From a virus: a stretch of 64,000 nucleotides of DNA. This document shows positions 32,627 to 62,669 of this stretch, in pieces. Below the pieces are notes generated by a model. It was not told where the DNA came from. It searched no databases and saw only the letters and a list, made by a program, of their open reading frames with translations. Both the position numbers and the translations under genes were made by a program. Numbering within the stretch: position 1 is the first letter of the stretch; each line of letters begins with the position of its first letter. Where the stretch lies: IMG/VR virus record IMGVR_UViG_3300028025_006304, positions 32,001 through 96,000 of that record, one strand, 5' to 3'.

Positions 32627-35600
32627 TTAGAAAGAACCATTTAATAAAACTCGTTTCCAACCCCCAGAAGCGGTTTTAACATATAAATAATCTTCATCCC
32701 AAGTTATCTGTCCTTGGTAACCACTACTATCACCATTACCTGTAGGAGTGTAAGGCTCTCTAATTCTTAAACCTTCTACGGGTGCTGCTCCATTTTCAAT
32801 ATCTACAACTGATCTGGGGGTATTTCCATTAAATACTGTATAACCATTAAAAGGTTCAAAATAGTTTGTTGTATCTCCAAGTACTGTAGATGAGCTAAAG
32901 TATGGAATAGCATATTGTGAACCTGATACACTACCTCCACCTCCAGTAGCCCAAGCTATACCATTAGATGTTGATGTAAGTACTTGATTAGCACTACCTG
33001 AGCTGTTGTTTACGTCAAAAAGAGATCCACTGATTCTAGCACTTTTGATAAGATCTACACCTGTATAACTTGTGTTTCCTACTGTTAACCAGTTAGAGGA
33101 ACTTACAAACATAGCATTTCTAGAGGTTCCGGTTGTGTCTTGGAATCTTAAAGATGTACTATTTAGATTAGATCCTGTAATAGAGATAGCTCCTACTACT
33201 GTTAATGTGTGACCCGGGGTAGAGGTTCCTATACCTACTCTATTATTAACATCATCATAGGACATTGATATTGCTCCACCAAATGATCCACCATTATTAT
33301 ATTGTACTTGACCGTCTGAACCACCAGGTGTTCCACCTCCTCCACTACCAGAGGCTGCTACAAAAATATCAACTATTCCTCCACCAGCATTACTAGCTAT
33401 AACTCCTGATCCTGTAAAATTAAGAGTAGTAAATGGACCTCCTATATCTGTTCCTTCATCTGTTACCTCAATAAAATATTGAGATACAGATGCAGCTAAA
33501 TTAGCGAATGATGCTGTAGTTGCAAATGAGGCACTAGTTGCAAATGAAGCAGATACTGCTCTAGAAGCTGAAGTAGCAAATGAAGCGCTTATAGCTTGAG
33601 AGGCACTTGTAGCAAATGAGGCACTTATAGCATTATTAACATTATTTACAGTTAGAGGGAATGTACTTCCATCACCTTTAGTAAATGTTAAAGTAGCATT
33701 AGATACAGAGCCGGTTACTAATAAAGAACCAGTATTAACAGATCCACCAAATGAACTAGTACTATAATATGTTAATCGTCCTGTACTTGGGTTAAAACCT
33801 ACAACATTAGGAGTAGTTATATTAGGTAATAGATTTTGAGCAAATAACCCACTACCTGATATAAAGAAATCATAAGTATTTAACCCAGCTATAGCTCCAT
33901 CTGAGATATGAAATTCACTACTCCCAGATAAACGAAACATTAAAGTATCATCTATAGCTAAAACAGTTCTGTTTCCTGTTAAAGTGCCATCACTATTATA
34001 GATGTTAAGAGCATTTGCTATTATAGATCCTGTATTAAAATAGGAAAATAACCCTGTAGTTGTATTATAACCTAATATATTAGATTGTGATGATGAAGGT
34101 ATTAAAGCATGGATATTACCTGAAACAAATAATAAAGCACTTGGTGGGGTTCCATTAAAATAAGCTGTATCATATTTCAATCCAACTTTTCCATCTCTAC
34201 GGAAAGTAACCAATTGAGTACCACTTCCAAAATTACCAGACTGGAATTCAAATGCATTACCATTCCCACCAACAGTTCTTATATTATTAAAATATGTAGC
34301 TGCTATATTAGAATCAGAATCATATGTTATTCTTGTACCTTGAGTAGTTGTAGCTCCTTCTTCGGATAGTAAAAGGAATACTTCATTTTCTTGTGCTTGA
34401 GAAGTAACAGTAATACCTACATTAGAATTACCAATTCCCGTTCCTAAAACATGGAGATTACTAGCAGGAGTATTAGTCCCCATACCAATTATTCCTGATG
34501 AACTTAAGAACAAGACAGGTTGGTTAGATGGAGAAATTGTAGCTATACTTGAGGTAAAGGATAGATTATAGCTGTTTAAATCAGCAGTTCTATTTCCTGT
34601 TAAAGAACCATCTGAGTTATAGATGTTAACATTAGAGAAAGGTAAAAGGGAAGAAGAAAAATATGTCCACTCTCCAGAGGCTGTATTGAGCCCAATTAAA
34701 TGAGATTGAGCAATATTAGATATATGAGGCCCATAAATTTGCCCTGAGCTAGATATAGCTAAAGAAGCTGATGTAGTTAACCTAGGTTTAGTAAATTGAG
34801 AATCAGCTACAAATGACCATTTATCATTTAAACTAGCTAGTCCAGCAGAAGCAGAAATTGCTAAACTTATAAATCTAGATCTAGCATAGTCACTACCTGC
34901 TAATACATAAGAACTTATAGAAGTAGGAATAGTTATTCTTTCATCATTATTTAGGTTTACCCAAATCCCCGATGCGCTATTAGGGGTTCTACCTCCAATA
35001 AACCCACCACCGTTAATCTCAAGTCCTCCTATTTGAGCATATGAATTATTTCTACCATTTCCTATAGGAGGTCCAACTTTTACAAATTGATTATCCCCTA
35101 TTTCAGAGCTAGTTACAATTAATCCTAATACCCCGGGATTTCTTGAGTCATAACTTTGAGAGATATATAAAGTAGTATTATCATAATCATAGAATAAACT
35201 AGCAGTAGCATGCCATTCACTACCTGATTTAAAATATACTTCTTTATCTAGTCCTGGAGGATTAATCCCTACTTCAACACCAGTTGACCCAGATGTAATA
35301 GCATAAAGTTGATCTACAAAATTTATAGCATCAACATCAGCTCTAGTAAGAGATCCAGTATAGTAAATATCAAGTTGATTACCAGTAGCACCTTGGGCTC
35401 CTGTAGGTCCAGTAGTGCCTTGAGCACCTTGAGCTCCCTGCACACCTTGAGCACCTTGAGCTCCCTGTGCACCCTGTGCTCCTTGTAAACCTTGGGCACC
35501 CTGTGCACCTGTTCCTCCTTGAGCACCTTGAGCTCCCTGTGCGCCTTGGGCTCCTGTAGCACCCTGTGCACCCTGTGCACCCTGTGCTCCTTGTAAACCT

Positions 35601-51447: not shown

Positions 51448-51521
51448 TGGACCTTGAGGGGCTCGAACCCACGACCAATTGATTATGAGTCAACTGCTCT
51501 AACCGACTGAGCTAAAGGTCC
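51448..51521 (-). tRNA. tRNA with CAU anticodon, probably Ile2 (alternatively Met)
   Basis: Cloverleaf; GTTGA-CTCATAA-TCAAT; overall Ile2-like context. Confidence 0.88.
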
Positions 51522-51527
51522 GATTAG

Positions 51528-51614
51528 CGGAGGCTCAGGGATTCGAACCCCGGTTACGCTCTCACGTAAGCCTGTTTTCAAGACAGGTGCATTCAACCGC
51601 TCTGCCAAACCTCC
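51528..51614 (-). tRNA. trnS: tRNA-Ser(UGA)
   Basis: CCTGT-CTTGAAA-ACAGG, long variable arm, G73. Confidence 0.93.
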
Positions 51615-51618
51615 ATTG

Positions 51619-51740
51619 TAGCCAGGGCTGGATTTGAACCAGCAATACTCAGTATTTAAACTGCTGCACTGTATAATCAAATTAGAAAGTATTTCACGCA
51701 GTAACCTAATTTGATGCGTCTACCATTCCGCCACCTGACT
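51619..51740 (-). ncRNA. tRNA-like RNA with enlarged anticodon and variable arms
   Basis: Acceptor AGTCAGG/CCTGGCT, Leu-type D arm, T arm GCTGG-TTCAAAT-CCAGC; 10-bp stem plus 20-nt loop in place of the anticodon arm. Confidence 0.7.
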
Positions 51741-51744
51741 ATAT

Positions 51745-51845
51745 AAAAGAACAGTTTGTAATGTCAGGGTAGAGCTTACCTACCCTCACCGGGACTCGAA
51801 CCCGTTAATACAAACGTACCCCTCATTAGCTACATGTGTTCCTTT
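51745..51845 (-). ncRNA. Structured RNA with T-loop hairpin (permuted tRNA/Y-RNA-like)
   Basis: GAACA/TGTTC, GTTTGTA/TACAAAC, CGGG-TTCGAGT-CCCG, AGGGTAG/CTACCCT. Confidence 0.55.
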
Positions 51846-51846
51846 G

Positions 51847-51926
51847 TACCGAAGGCGGGACTCGAACCCGCACGCTTAAAGCACTGGTTCCTAAGACCAG
51901 CATGTCTACCATTCCACCACTTCGGC
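51847..51926 (-). tRNA. trnL: tRNA-Leu(UAG)
   Basis: CTGGT-CTTAGGA-ACCAG, type II. Confidence 0.93.
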
Positions 51927-52010: not shown

Positions 52011-52472
52011 TTAAACTCTTATAGCATGGTCTGCTGCTCTTGTAGCGATTTGAAGTGCAGGTTTTGTTGTGCTTTTAAAACCCGCTGCTTGTACCCACCC
52101 TTTTGATGCCGCCACTAGTTTATTAGATGCTTTAAACTCATCATCGTTAAAGTCCAAATCGATTGATTCGATTTTAAGTGGACTATTTTCAACTATGAAC
52201 AATGCTGTCTCAATTGACATTTCTGTTTCTCGCCACAAACGCGACCAAAAATCACGAACGATTGGTACTTTGATCTTGTGGTATAAAACGTGACATCCTC
52301 TACTACGGTACCTTAATACTATAGCTGTACAGTAAACTGTTTCGGGACCCCTGTTTTGTGAGTCGCTACCAACATATATCTTTGTCTCTGGATTAGCTTG
52401 CACATAATCAAGTAAGTAAGGGATTAGTTGAATTGGTTTATGTGTAGTGCCACTTTTAAAGATTCTGTTCAT
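52011..52472 (-). CDS. RNase H-like YkuK family protein
   Basis: IYVGSDSQ, YCTAIV, RLWRETEMS, IDLDFN, KP....ATRAADH; start moved to 52472 because the track extension runs through tRNA-Tyr. Confidence 0.8.
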   Translation of the reverse strand: MNRIFKSGTTHKPIQLIPYLLDYVQANPETKIYVGSDSQNRGPETVYCTAIVLRYRSRGCHVLYHKIKVPIVRDFWSRLWRETEMSIETALFIVENSPLKIESIDLDFNDDEFKASNKLVAASKGWVQAAGFKSTTKPALQIATRAADHAIRV

Positions 52473-52567: not shown

Positions 52568-52579
52568 TAATAATGTTAG

Positions 52580-52655
52580 TTGGCAAGACGAGACTCGAAC
52601 TCGCATGTGACCGTTACACTTTCTACAAGGTATAAGCTTGAGGTGATACTTGCCA
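52580..52655 (-). ncRNA. D-armless tRNA-like RNA with UAU loop
   Basis: Acceptor TGGCAAG/CTTGCCA, T arm GCGAG-TTCGAGT-CTCGT, CAAG-CTTATAC-CTTG; no D arm. Confidence 0.65.
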
Positions 52656-52939: not shown

Positions 52940-53443
52940 TTATAGATAGTTCTGTCCAAATTTAGTTACAATTTCCTTTGCCTCATCGATTGACAGATCA
53001 AAAAACTCTCGGTTACCAGCAATTCGTTGCCCATCCAGATGACGGTGAACCTCTTTCTCCAACTGCTCGGCATTATAGCAATGGAAGGCCCACTCAACTT
53101 TAAACGGAAGAGGAATACCTGTTGATCGTGAGAGTTGCTCTGCTCGAATCTCGGGGGTTAGATCGGTAAATCCAATTTTTACATAACCCGGCATGGTAGG
53201 ATTTGACAAAACATACACCCACGAATCAAGATCAGAGGTACGATTAGCATATTTATTACGCTTTCTTCCGGTAAAATACGTAACTATATCCCACCCATCT
53301 TCACCTTCAGTGAGTGTATAATAGGGGCAACGGTTAACCGAAATTCCCGTGTAATCTTCCACTAGAGGAATGTATTGCTTTGCTTCCTCGGGTGTAATCC
53401 GTTTAATAGGATCACGATTTGGTCGAATATTATAGTAAGGCAT
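52940..53443 (-). CDS. T5orf172-type GIY-YIG domain protein
   Basis: WVYVLSNPTMPGYVKIGFT...STGIPLPF...LEKEVH...NREFF. Confidence 0.85.
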   Translation of the reverse strand: MPYYNIRPNRDPIKRITPEEAKQYIPLVEDYTGISVNRCPYYTLTEGEDGWDIVTYFTGRKRNKYANRTSDLDSWVYVLSNPTMPGYVKIGFTDLTPEIRAEQLSRSTGIPLPFKVEWAFHCYNAEQLEKEVHRHLDGQRIAGNREFFDLSIDEAKEIVTKFGQNYL

Positions 53444-62381: not shown

Positions 62382-62609
62382 TTAAAGGTTCTCGTTATTG
62401 TATTCGTTGTCAAAAGCATCAGAAATCTGTTGAAGTGTCAGGTTTCCATACTTGTAGGCGAAGTCAACCATTCGATCTTTTTCCTCTTGTTCAAATGTCG
62501 CAACCTCTTTGGCTGCCATCATTAAGGCCTCGCACTGTGCTGTGTGTCGTGACCACTCACCAGCCAATTCGTCTAGCCGGTCTGCAATTTTAAATGTTAG
62601 TGTTTTCAT
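62382..62609 (-). CDS. Hypothetical protein
   Basis: 75 aa; promoter at 62632-62662. Confidence 0.6.
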   Translation of the reverse strand: MKTLTFKIADRLDELAGEWSRHTAQCEALMMAAKEVATFEQEEKDRMVDFAYKYGNLTLQQISDAFDNEYNNENL

Positions 62610-62669
62610 TTCTGTTTTTATTTATTTGATTAAATATACGAACTATATTTCAGATATCCAAACCTATAG

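What the first reader, a model, noticed from the sequence alone, without database searches (positions are those of the whole stretch)
51619..51740. 122-nt tRNA mimic: intact elbow and acceptor, anticodon arm replaced by a long hairpin
Acceptor (with U3:G70), Leu-type D arm and T arm are intact. The anticodon arm is a perfect 10-bp stem ATCAAATTAG/CTAATTTGAT with a 20-nt loop, and the variable arm is a structured 30-mer (ATAC..CAGT-TTAAAT-ACTG..GTAT). Preserved pairing argues against a decaying pseudogene. It cannot decode as is; possible roles are a decoy for tRNA-sensing or tRNA-cleaving defences, an aminoacyl donor, or a precursor with a short intron.
Basis: partly seen in the sequence, partly recalled or inferred. 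Interest (0 to 1): 0.7.

Follow-up and report, generated by a model that had tools for sequence, protein, structure and literature searches.

The report
Anticodon-less tRNA-Leu shell RNA of phages
This 122-base phage gene keeps the upper body of a leucine tRNA but has unrelated folded RNA where the codon-reading arm should be. It belongs to a large phage-only family of such RNAs, resembling the long-known but unexplained stable RNAs of phages T5 and T4, and its function is still unknown.

Summary
On the minus strand (51740 to 51619), inside a phage tRNA array, lies a 122-nt tRNA-shaped gene with these parts:
- a 7-bp acceptor stem with A73;
- a Leu-type D arm and a T arm;
- a 10-bp stem with a 20-nt loop in place of the anticodon arm;
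- a 30-nt variable hairpin.

ARAGORN and Rfam do not call it a tRNA.

It is not a decaying pseudogene. Relatives keep every helix through compensatory changes: 7 pairs changed on both sides, and 99% of cells paired.

Members share a near-constant shell that keeps the tRNA core nucleotides. Their centres are unrelated, 21-119 nt long, and some carry extra hairpins in the D loop.

The same element (121/122 nt) sits in an unrelated phage context, and homology stops at the element's edges. The unit or its centre is therefore exchanged between phages.

Best reading: a non-decoding, tRNA-processed scaffold RNA carrying a lineage-specific structured cargo. The cargo's function is unknown. The closest known RNAs are T5 RNA1/RNA2 and T4 rnaC.

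The short-intron idea fits this subfamily in silico (it gives a Leu-UAG loop) but has no other support.

Earlier notes of this scan describe the same family on other DNA.

The parts
51619..51740 (-). Whole 122-nt tRNA-shaped RNA gene (position 1 = 51740, discriminator A73 equivalent = 51619)
   Evidence: Sequence; MFE cloverleaf; family membership
51734..51740 (-). Acceptor stem, 5' strand AGTCAGG
   Evidence: Pairs with 51620-51626. All 7 pairs are standard in 6 relatives; U3:G70 occurs only here. In the wider family the acceptor covaries, e.g. AGTCTTG/CAAGACT, TCTCCCG/CGGGAGA, GGAGAGA/TCTCTCC.
51716..51731 (-). D arm GCGG-AATGGTA-GACGC, Leu type (3-bp stem, A14 A15, G18 G19)
   Evidence: Same D-loop motif as the window's own tRNA-Leu(tag) and T5 tRNA-Leu/RNA1. 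Across 91 members not selected on these positions: U8 90, A14 87, A15 85, GG in the D loop 83.
51676..51715 (-). 10-bp stem ATCAAATTAG/CTAATTTGAT with a 20-nt loop, in place of the anticodon arm. The 5' strand holds TTAGG, a likely relic of a Leu(UAG) anticodon loop.
   Evidence: Three pairs changed on both sides in L208 while the loop stays the same. TTAGG is about 20-fold enriched at the start of family centres.
51645..51674 (-). Enlarged variable arm: outer ATAC/GTAT, 7-nt bulge AGTGCAG, inner hairpin CAGT-TTAAAT-ACTG
   Evidence: The inner stem is kept with a different loop in L161. It is replaced by another perfect hairpin (GGAT-AGT-ATCC) in a metatranscriptome contig (tables 3, 4). The bulge is complementary to CUGCGU of the 20-nt loop (sequence; not testable, as all copies are invariant).
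51627..51643 (-). T arm GCTGG-TTCAAAT-CCAGC
   Evidence: Three of 5 pairs changed on both sides among 6 relatives. Across the family 90 of 91 T stems are fully paired.
51619..51626 (-). Acceptor 3' strand CCTGGCT plus discriminator A; followed by CA, with no encoded CCA
   Evidence: Sequence. A73 is present in most members found without forcing it. The trailer C-A-A-A is A-rich in 66-73% of 91 contexts, and U at -1 in 88%.

Best explanation
The element is a gene for a non-decoding, tRNA-Leu-derived scaffold RNA. It belongs to a large phage-specific family.

Proposed role of the constant shell. The shell comprises the acceptor stem with A73, the Leu-type D arm, the T arm and the core nucleotides U8, A14, A15, G18G19 and U48. 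It folds into the tRNA elbow and acceptor. As a result the RNA would be cut out of the tRNA-array (or operon) transcript by RNase P and the 3' tRNA-processing enzymes. It would then be stable, receive CCA, and possibly be leucylated, because bacterial LeuRS reads A73 and the D/T core and not the anticodon.

Proposed role of the centre. The decoding arm and variable arm are replaced by a lineage-specific, structured cargo: here a 10-bp stem with a conserved 20-nt loop plus a bulged hairpin. This cargo is the working part and most likely binds a protein or RNA partner.

Exchange between phages. The two 26-27-nt shell halves also serve as homology arms, so that centres, or the whole unit, are exchanged between co-infecting phages.

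Shown versus inferred.
- Shown: the structure, the covariation, the family, its restriction to phages, and the discrete-unit sharing.
- Inferred: processing, stability, charging, and that the centre is an effector.
- Unknown: what the centre binds.
For: 1. Structure and covariation in this subfamily. 99% of cells are paired; 7 pairs are changed on both sides, including 3 in the 10-bp stem; 0 of 500 shuffles reach this. In other subfamilies 14 changed pairs all stay paired, against 36 substitutions at unpaired positions.

2. Family size and host range.

3. Diversity of centres. There are 91 distinct members of 67-169 nt, whose centres fall into 67 unrelated groups out of 73 and share no motif.

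4. No decoding arm.
- A canonical 5-bp/7-nt anticodon arm at the proper place is absent in nearly all members.
- ARAGORN of 118, with many different 'anticodons' on the same shell.

5. tRNA core kept at positions the search did not force: U8 90/91, A14 87/91, A15 85/91, GG 83/91, U48 85/91. These, with A73, are the published leucine identity set, for which the anticodon arm is dispensable (PMC2377443).

6. [quoted passage not shown]

7. Discrete unit.
- The element is 121/122 identical in the L008-type phages, where it lies between ORFs with no tRNAs nearby, and homology ends within 3 nt of its edges.
- It is 96% identical in the L067-type arrays, where the canonical tRNAs are only 80-88% identical.
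- Centres are modular: L124 and L040 share one half only, and L134 and L066 share the centre but differ by a D-loop insert.

8. Flanks fit tRNA processing: U at -1 in 88% of contexts.

9. Family members occur in contigs of metatranscriptome libraries from three studies. This is weak, because contigs cannot exclude DNA.

10. Precedent. T5 RNA1 and RNA2 are annotated 'tRNA-like stable RNA with unknown functions'. They have the same architecture, and RNA1 has the same Leu-type D arm. T4 rnaC is a stable late RNA of unknown role.
Against: - No direct evidence that this RNA is made, processed, CCA-tailed or charged. The RNA-library contigs have depth 2-5 and may be DNA carry-over.
- The elbow is not strictly kept in close relatives. 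The L067-type copies have AG instead of G18G19, and L161 adds a T-loop U-to-G change. The window copy has a U3:G70 wobble, and a comparable G4:U69 pair cut leucylation in Aquifex about 40-fold. Leucylation is therefore doubtful as the conserved constraint.
- No partner was found: no conserved neighbouring protein and no antisense target in the phage's own genome.
- Centres fold only modestly better than shuffles (mean z = -0.94).
- I found no clean case of one orthologous locus carrying two different centres. Exchange by shell recombination is therefore inferred from shared centres in unrelated flanks, not seen directly.
Confidence: 0.55

Rival explanations
1. Decoy or inhibitor for a host anti-phage system that recognises tRNAs. 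Examples are nucleases that cut the anticodon or variable arm of class-II tRNAs, and toxins that modify the acceptor end. The shell gives recognition. The altered body makes the RNA a non-productive, competing ligand, and the variety of centres reflects an arms race.
For: The family is restricted to phages, and its centres show extreme, exchangeable diversity. That pattern is typical of counter-defence genes. Recent work shows defences that cut tRNA-Tyr variable loops (Septu) or amputate anticodon arms (OLD), and phage tRNAs acting as supplement or decoy (PMC13096335). A GIY-YIG-like T5orf172 gene sits beside the array, as segB does in T4.
Against: A decoy for an anticodon or variable-loop nuclease should mimic the target arm, yet the centres share no motif with each other or with tRNA arms. 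Within a lineage the centre is conserved rather than fast-evolving. No defence system or host is known for this phage.
Confidence: 0.2
2. A leucine-accepting, non-decoding RNA whose purpose is the charged state itself. It could act as a leucyl donor for a transferase, or as a sponge for LeuRS or EF-Tu that alters host translation or starvation signalling.
For: The shell keeps exactly what bacterial LeuRS reads: A73, U8-A14, A15-U48, G18G19 and the T loop. The parts LeuRS ignores are free to vary. The D arm is of the tRNA-Leu type.
Against: Close relatives lose G18 or change U55. Some members carry D-loop hairpin insertions that move G18G19. The window copy has a wobble in the acceptor helix. 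No L/F-transferase or CCA-adding enzyme is found in the held 69% of the genome. This reading does not explain why centres are structured, conserved within lineages and so diverse between them.
Confidence: 0.12
3. A tRNA-Leu(UAG) gene interrupted by a 23-nt intron after position 37 and carrying an oversized variable arm. After removal of the intron it would decode CUA/CUG.
For: Removing 23 nt gives a perfect 5-bp stem and the loop A-U-U-A-G-G-U (U33, anticodon UAG, G37). This holds in the window copy and, despite three compensated stem changes, in L208 as G-U-U-A-G-A-U. TTAGG is enriched about 20-fold at the start of family centres (7 of 70). Pairing of the anticodon with the insert recalls the anticodon-intron helix of spliced pre-tRNAs.
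Against: There is no bulge-helix-bulge motif, and the 3' cut would lie inside a perfect helix. No short tRNA intron or splicing endonuclease is known in bacteria or their phages. None of EndA, RtcB, Rnl1 or Rnl2 is found in the held genome. ARAGORN with introns allowed makes no call. Across the family, spliceable arms are at shuffle level. RNA-library contigs from two studies cross the site unspliced. No position-26 nucleotide would be left. A canonical tRNA-Leu(tag) lies 105 nt upstream.
Confidence: 0.06
4. A cis-acting processing signal ('tRNA punctuation'). The shell only recruits RNase P and the 3' processing enzymes, to cut polycistronic transcripts and set the stability of neighbouring mRNAs. 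The centre would be a passenger.
For: Most members stand between protein genes, on the same strand as them, and not next to tRNAs. One is followed directly by a terminator (L208). U at -1 is conserved.
Against: RNase P needs only the acceptor and T arm, yet the D arm and the core tertiary nucleotides are conserved. The centres show compensatory change and lineage-level conservation higher than that of neighbouring tRNAs. In the window the element sits inside a tRNA array, where processing sites already abound.
Confidence: 0.07
5. A decaying tRNA-Leu pseudogene hit by insertions.
For: It has the TTAGG relic of an anticodon loop and is not called by tRNA finders.
Against: All helices are intact and kept by compensatory changes. 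The shell core is conserved in about 90 distinct members. The element is 96-99% conserved between phages whose real tRNAs are 80-88% identical.
Confidence: 0.02

Closest known systems
Phage T5 RNA1 (NC_005859 30501-30644) and RNA2 (32959-33083), annotated 'tRNA-like stable RNA with unknown functions'
   Same: Both are encoded in a phage tRNA cluster. They have the same layout: acceptor stem, UG or CG at 8-9, D arm, a long arm in place of the anticodon arm, an extra hairpin, and a T arm. RNA1 has the same Leu-type D arm (GGAAUUGGUAGAC). RNA2 ends in A-C-A like this family. Their function is unknown.
   Different: There is no detectable sequence homology: blastn of the window element against 50,697 GenBank phages finds nothing. 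T5 RNA1 is one orthologous RNA that aligns full-length down to 75% identity in 487 T5-like phages, not a constant shell with unrelated centres. RNA1's annotated 3' end runs 12 nt past the acceptor.
Phage T4 species 1 RNA (rnaC, 139 nt) of the T4 tRNA cluster
   Same: It is a stable RNA in a tRNA cluster with an acceptor-like stem, a canonical T arm and two long hairpins between them. It is a late RNA seen on Northern blots, with its role unknown after 50 years (PMC3014915, PMC9697503).
   Different: It has no D arm and hence no elbow, and two U:U mismatches in the acceptor. It is conserved as a whole (95-100%) within Tequatrovirus. It shows no sequence similarity to the window element.
Canonical class-II tRNA-Leu (Rfam RF00005)
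   Same: It shares the acceptor with A73, the D arm, the T arm and the core tertiary nucleotides. A TTAGG relic suggests descent from tRNA-Leu(UAG). Several family members exceed the Rfam tRNA cut-off when filters are lax: 33-45 bits against a cut-off of 29.
   Different: There is no 5-bp/7-nt anticodon arm. The variable arm is 30 nt. The window copy is not reported by the Rfam tRNA model even at E <= 10 nor by ARAGORN.
tmRNA tRNA-like domain
   Same: It is a tRNA acceptor and T arm carrying a large non-tRNA insert in place of the anticodon arm, and it is charged by a synthetase that ignores the anticodon.
   Different: tmRNA has alanine identity (G3:U70), a reduced D loop, pseudoknots and a tag reading frame. 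Rfam tmRNA matches only the 17-nt T arm here, at 6.6 bits.
Bacterial Y-RNA-like YrlA and engineered 'tRNA scaffold' RNAs
   Same: In both, a tRNA-like module gives processing and stability to an attached functional RNA. In the engineered scaffold the cargo replaces the anticodon arm, exactly as here (own knowledge: Ponchon and Dardel 2007).
   Different: YrlA is circularly permuted, with its ends at the Ro-binding stem. Rfam YrlA does not match the element. The scaffold is man-made.

Membership tests
Canonical tRNA (RF00005 / ARAGORN) | 7-bp acceptor, D arm, T arm with a TTCRANT loop | tested here: met
   Sequence and MFE fold; covariation
Canonical tRNA (RF00005 / ARAGORN) | 5-bp anticodon stem with a 7-nt loop (U33, purine 37) at positions 27-43 | tested here: not met
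   10-bp stem with a 20-nt loop. The best register gives 2 of 5 pairs.
Canonical tRNA (RF00005 / ARAGORN) | Called by a tRNA finder or scores at or above the Rfam gathering score (29 bits) | tested here: not met
   No call. Some other family members do score 33-45 bits.
Phage tRNA-Leu shell family with unrelated centres (uncatalogued; defined here) | Shell AGTCAGG-UG-GCGGAAU(U)GGUAGACGC ... U-ACAGG/GCUGG-UUCAAAU-...-CCUGACU-A | tested here: met
   The window copy matches both search patterns and differs from the consensus shell by one base (A70 to G).
Phage tRNA-Leu shell family with unrelated centres (uncatalogued; defined here) | Centre unrelated between lineages but conserved and structured within a lineage | tested here: met
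   67 unrelated groups among 73 centres. The window-type centre is 96-100% conserved, with compensatory changes.
Phage tRNA-Leu shell family with unrelated centres (uncatalogued; defined here) | Found in phages, not in cellular genomes | tested here: met
   More than 120 viral loci against 6 MAG contigs in 185,579 genomes
T5 RNA1/RNA2-type tRNA-like stable RNAs | tRNA-cluster gene with acceptor, D and T arms and long arms replacing the anticodon and variable arms | tested here: met
   Folds and sequence comparison
T5 RNA1/RNA2-type tRNA-like stable RNAs | Sequence homology to T5 RNA1 or RNA2 | tested here: not met
   blastn against GenBank phages finds no match. Only the D-loop motif is shared.
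T5 RNA1/RNA2-type tRNA-like stable RNAs | Accumulates as a discrete stable RNA in infected cells | not testable with these tools
   Only low-depth contigs in RNA libraries are available
Intron-containing tRNA | Removal of one segment restores a canonical anticodon arm | tested here: met
   ATCAA-AUUAGGU-UUGAT after removing 23 nt; the same holds in L208. At family level the rate equals that of shuffles.
Intron-containing tRNA | Recognisable splicing motif (bulge-helix-bulge or group I core) or a spliced product | tested here: not met
   Perfect helix without bulges. A 23-nt insert is far too short for a group I intron. RNA contigs are unspliced. ARAGORN -i makes no call.
tmRNA | G3:U70 alanine identity, pseudoknots, tag reading frame, Rfam RF00023 match | tested here: not met
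   U3:G70 is the reverse orientation and unique to this copy. The tmRNA model matches the T arm only, at 6.6 bits.
Leucine-accepting RNA (substrate of bacterial LeuRS) | A73, U8-A14, A15-U48, G18-U55, G19-C56, regular acceptor helix | tested here: inconclusive
   All the nucleotides are present in the window copy and in 83-90 of 91 members. However, the copy has a U3:G70 wobble, and close relatives lack G18 or U55. Charging itself is not testable here.

The most novel reading that the evidence does not exclude
The family is a pan-phage RNA cargo system. A universal tRNA-Leu chassis secures processing, stability and perhaps charging in any bacterial host. Between its two constant halves, phages trade a large pool of small structured RNAs by recombination. 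Those RNAs would be counter-defence effectors, for example mimics or sponges of RNA components or RNA-binding proteins of host immune systems. If so, T5 RNA1/RNA2 and T4 rnaC would be the first laboratory examples of the same principle.
Probability: 0.15. Interest if true: 0.85.

Novelty: new variant of a known kind. Interest (0 to 1): 0.6.

Why it matters
Phage tRNA clusters have been known since the 1970s to encode tRNA-like stable RNAs, namely T4 species 1 and T5 RNA1/RNA2. Their function has never been found.

This element shows that such RNAs are not oddities of two laboratory phages. It belongs to a family of at least 120 loci in uncultured phages. Its design is clear:
- The tRNA core that cellular enzymes recognise is kept.
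- Insertions sit only where a tRNA tolerates them.
- The centres differ between lineages, are conserved within them, and are shared between unrelated phages.

This gives concrete handles for experiment: shell against cargo, T5 as a model phage, and leucylation and RNase P assays.

It also matters for annotation. These genes are either missed or called as tRNAs with arbitrary anticodons (22 of 118 here), which distorts the tRNA repertoires and codon-usage inferences drawn for phages.

Tried and rejected
- **Rfam.** Gathering and E-value modes find no family on the element except a 17-nt tmRNA T-arm match.
- **GenBank phages.** blastn of the element against 50,697 phage records finds no match.
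- **Antisense target.** A search of the phage's own 118.6-kb record finds nothing better than 12-mers at E = 0.35.
- **Shared motifs among centres.** The top 7- and 8-mers are at shuffle level.
- **Conserved neighbouring protein.**
  - The largest cluster, PF04308 RNase H-like, lies within 4 kb in 12 of 114 loci. It is found in 11 of 42 whole records and 2 of 9 near-complete ones, so it is not an obligate partner.
- **Enzyme families in the phage's own record.**
  - CCA-adding enzyme, L/F-transferase, Rnl2, RtcB, Rnl1 and tRNA-splicing endonuclease: none found in a record that is only 69% complete. The Rnl1 search rang in no control genome.
- **Orthologous loci with different centres.** The 10 candidate pairs were tandem copies, near-identical elements or offset alignments, so there is no clean case.
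- **Metagenome scan with the 16-nt loop core.** It returned 120 loci. A context filter for nearby shell motifs kept 9, of which 5 proved to be the element (L161, L201, L208, L263 and one more). The other 4 were unrelated.
- **Read laying.**
  - Parts of the stretch without cover, and the depth figures, say nothing.
  - One joint (51515 to 51904, with 156 other letters between) comes from another organism's tRNA array.
- **Promoter-like site.** The site at 51767-51738 overlaps the element's first bases and is at chance frequency.
- **ARAGORN at an 80% threshold.** It gives a shifted, spurious 'tRNA-Ser(tga)' of 94 nt.
Full report
**1. Where it is.** The window is part of an IMG/VR virus record of 118.6 kb, estimated 69% complete. 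The record encodes a major head protein, portal, large terminase and baseplate wedge proteins, so it is a large tailed phage.

On the minus strand between 52895 and 51097 lies an array of seven canonical tRNAs: Leu-taa, Arg-tct, Tyr-gta, Leu-tag, Ser-tga, Met-cat and Thr-tgt. The finding lies on that same strand, 51740 to 51619. It is 105 nt downstream of tRNA-Leu(tag) and 4 nt upstream of tRNA-Ser(tga).

Read on the minus strand the 122 nt are:
- AGTCAGG (acceptor, 5' strand);
- UG;
- GCGG-AAUGGUA-GACGC (D arm);
- AUCAAAUUAG, a 20-nt loop, CUAAUUUGAU;
- a 30-nt bulged hairpin;
- GCUGG-UUCAAAU-CCAGC (T arm);
- CCUGGCU (acceptor, 3' strand);
- A (discriminator).

The unconstrained minimum-energy fold is this same five-helix cloverleaf. 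ARAGORN does not call it, with or without introns allowed. The Rfam tRNA model does not report it even at E <= 10.

**3. It is one member of a large phage family.**
- A pattern made of the D arm, a 60-90-nt gap and the T loop found 22 viral loci.
The same pattern found 6 loci, all on metagenome-assembled contigs, in one genome each of 185,579 prokaryote species.
- From these loci I extracted 91 distinct elements of 67 to 169 nt.
- Their shell is nearly constant.
- The 21-119 nt between the D arm and the T arm cannot be aligned: 73 centres fall into 67 groups that share not even a 12-mer, and no 7- or 8-mer is shared beyond shuffle level.
- A canonical anticodon arm at the proper place is essentially absent.
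- ARAGORN of 118 copies and gives the same shell Val, Leu, Ser, Pro, Glu, Ile, Asn and Tyr 'anticodons'. These assignments are not credible, since identical shells would not serve so many amino acids.

**4. The shell is under RNA-level selection.**
- At positions the search did not force, the tRNA core nucleotides are kept: U8 in 90 of 91, A14 in 87, A15 in 85, GG in the D loop in 83, and U48 in 85.
- D stems covary (GCG/CGC, GUG/CAC, GCA/UGC). T stems covary, and 90 of 91 are fully paired.
- Where the acceptor was left free it covaries too: AGUCUUG/CAAGACU, UCUCCCG/CGGGAGA, GGAGAGA/UCUCUCC.
- The flanks carry U at -1 in 88% of 91 contexts and an A-rich trailer. U at -1 fits bacterial RNase P preference (own knowledge).
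[quoted passage not shown] These are the places where a tRNA can be enlarged without disturbing the elbow and acceptor (established tRNA structure).

**5. The centre of the window type is also under selection.**
- I found six distinct sequences of this type and aligned them.
No shuffle out of 500 reaches these values, and the slid controls drop to 23-39% paired.
- In L208 the stem reads AUAGAGUUAG/CUAACUCUAU, which is three compensated pairs. The 32-nt variable arm, which the search did not force, is nearly unchanged.
- A wastewater metatranscriptome contig carries a further variant. Its inner hairpin CAGU-UUAAAU-ACUG is replaced by another perfect hairpin, GGAU-AGU-AUCC (tables 3 and 4).
- In five other subfamilies, 14 changed pairs all remain paired against 36 substitutions at unpaired positions. 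The caveat is that these structures were predicted from the same pairs of sequences.
- Centres as a whole fold only modestly better than shuffles: mean z = -0.94, n = 66.

**6. The element behaves as a discrete, transferable unit.**
- The same element (121 of 122 nt) occurs in the L008, L013, L017, L019 and L263 contigs. There it lies between protein genes with no tRNA within 1.5 kb.
- The flanks there show no similarity to the window's flanks, and homology ends within 3 nt of the element.
- The only other segment these contigs share with the window's genome is 225 nt at 86% identity, and it lies 10.6 kb away in the window's genome.
- In the L067-type arrays the element is 96% identical, while the canonical tRNAs beside it are 80-88% identical and arranged in a different order.
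- Centres are modular. L124 and L040 share only the 3' hairpins. L134 and L066 share the centre and differ by a 40-nt D-loop insert.
- The simplest account is exchange of the unit, or of its centre, between co-infecting phages, with the 26-27-nt shell halves serving as homology arms. This is an inference: I found no clean orthologous locus with two different centres.
- Most genomes carry one copy. One complete 167-kb genome carries three copies with different centres.

**7. Ancestry.** The shell's D arm is of the tRNA-Leu type, like those of the window's and T5's own tRNA-Leu. TTAGG, the core of a Leu(UAG) anticodon loop, is about 20-fold enriched in the first 16 nt of the centres, occurring in 7 of 70 including this one. 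The family therefore most likely descends from a phage tRNA-Leu(UAG).

**8. The intron idea.**
- For: deleting 23 nt (window 51703-51681) in silico yields ATCAA-AUUAGGU-UUGAU, a canonical Leu(UAG) arm. The same operation works in L208.
- Against:
  - Across the family such arms are as frequent as in shuffled centres.
  - There is no bulge-helix-bulge motif.
  - The 3' cut would lie inside a perfect helix that is itself kept by covariation.
  - ARAGORN with introns allowed is silent.
  - No RNA ligase or splicing endonuclease family was found in the held part of the genome.
  - Contigs from two RNA libraries cross the site unspliced.
- I keep this reading as a rival at about 6%.

**9. Expression.** Contigs in metatranscriptome libraries from three studies carry family members:
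- one carries the L008-type element joined to the end of its upstream ORF;
- one carries a window-like variant joined to tRNA-Ser;
- two carry the 5' shells of other members.

The depths are low and contigs cannot exclude DNA. This is a weak hint of co-transcription with neighbours and no more.

**10. How it most likely works.**
- The shell retains what RNase P, the 3' processing and CCA-adding enzymes, and tRNA-modifying enzymes recognise.
- It also retains the published identity set of bacterial LeuRS: A73 and the U8-A14, A15-U48, G18-U55 and G19-C56 core, with the anticodon arm dispensable (PMC2377443).
- I therefore read the element as a non-decoding scaffold RNA that is excised and stabilised like a tRNA and presents a lineage-specific structured module.
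- Leucylation is possible but doubtful as the conserved constraint. Close relatives lack G18 or U55, some members carry D-loop inserts, and the window copy has a wobble in the acceptor helix.
- What the module binds is unknown. I found no antisense target, no conserved partner gene and no shared motif.
- The pattern of conservation within a lineage, unrelated centres between lineages, and exchange between phages is what one expects of a specificity-determining effector, for instance in counter-defence. Nothing here tests that.

**11. Comparison with what is known.**
- The closest described objects are the tRNA-like stable RNAs of phage tRNA clusters.
- T5 RNA1 and RNA2 are annotated 'tRNA-like stable RNA with unknown functions'. 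They have the same layout, RNA1 has the same Leu-type D arm, and RNA2 ends in A-C-A. RNA1 is conserved as one orthologous RNA in 487 T5-like phages.
- T4 rnaC has an acceptor and a T arm but no D arm. Its role is stated to be unknown in 2010 and 2022 papers.
- I found no sequence homology to either and no paper describing this family.
- Phages carrying family members also carry other large or tRNA-like non-coding RNAs: a GOLLD 5' part, freshwater-1, and a YrlA-like element.
- Earlier notes of this scan, on other genomes, describe the same family and reach the same 'shell with swappable cargo' reading. They gave me the T5 lead, which I checked.

**12. Verdict.**
- It is a new variant of a known but unexplained kind.

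Noticed in passing
window 51745-51845 (minus strand): This is the 101-nt spacer just upstream of the element. It folds very strongly (-34.5 kcal/mol, z = -3.8). Its ends pair, and it contains a T-loop hairpin (CGGG-UUCGAGU-CCCG) and a 7-bp hairpin (AGGGUAG/CUACCCU). A similar GGGUAG..CUACCC hairpin precedes the element in the L067-type and L161 arrays.
   Followed up: partly
window 52577-52655 (minus strand): A tRNA-sized element lies between tRNA-Arg and tRNA-Tyr. It has a perfect 7-bp acceptor (UGGCAAG/CUUGCCA) and a T arm (GCGAG-UUCGAGU-CUCGU) but no recognisable D or anticodon arm. ARAGORN and Rfam do not call it. Its fold is no better than shuffles (z = -1.0).
   Followed up: partly
window 52011-52472 (minus strand): An ORF inside the tRNA array belongs to PF04308 (RNase H-like, DUF458), E = 8e-18. 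The same family lies within 4 kb of a family member in 12 of 114 loci. It occurs in 11 of 42 whole phage records but in only 2 of 9 near-complete ones.
   Followed up: partly
window 52940-53443 (minus strand): A T5orf172 / MUG113 (GIY-YIG-like nuclease) ORF lies directly upstream of the tRNA array. This recalls the homing endonuclease segB in the T4 tRNA cluster.
   Followed up: no
window 62389-62613: A 225-nt segment is 86% identical to the small ORF that lies 18 nt from the same element in the otherwise unrelated L017 and L013 contigs. It is a sign of mosaic exchange between these phages.
   Followed up: partly
L051:1787-1867, L010:4148-4215, L051:665-764: Phage loci that carry family members also hold the 5' part of a GOLLD RNA (55 bits, cut by the locus end). 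They also hold a freshwater-1 RNA (66 bits, just under its cut-off of 72) and a YrlA-like match (39 bits, below its cut-off).
   Followed up: no
L069:3264-3371 (member m55): One member has a Leu(CAG)-like arm, UUUAU-AUCAGGUGU-AUAAA, that is a 5-bp stem with a 9-nt loop. This is nearly a canonical tRNA-Leu and is possibly an intermediate form.
   Followed up: no
L208:513-674 (minus strand) and downstream: This diverged copy of the window-type element carries a 38-nt hairpin inserted in its D loop. About 10 nt downstream comes a strong intrinsic-terminator-like hairpin with a U run. The element therefore ends a transcription unit there.
   Followed up: partly
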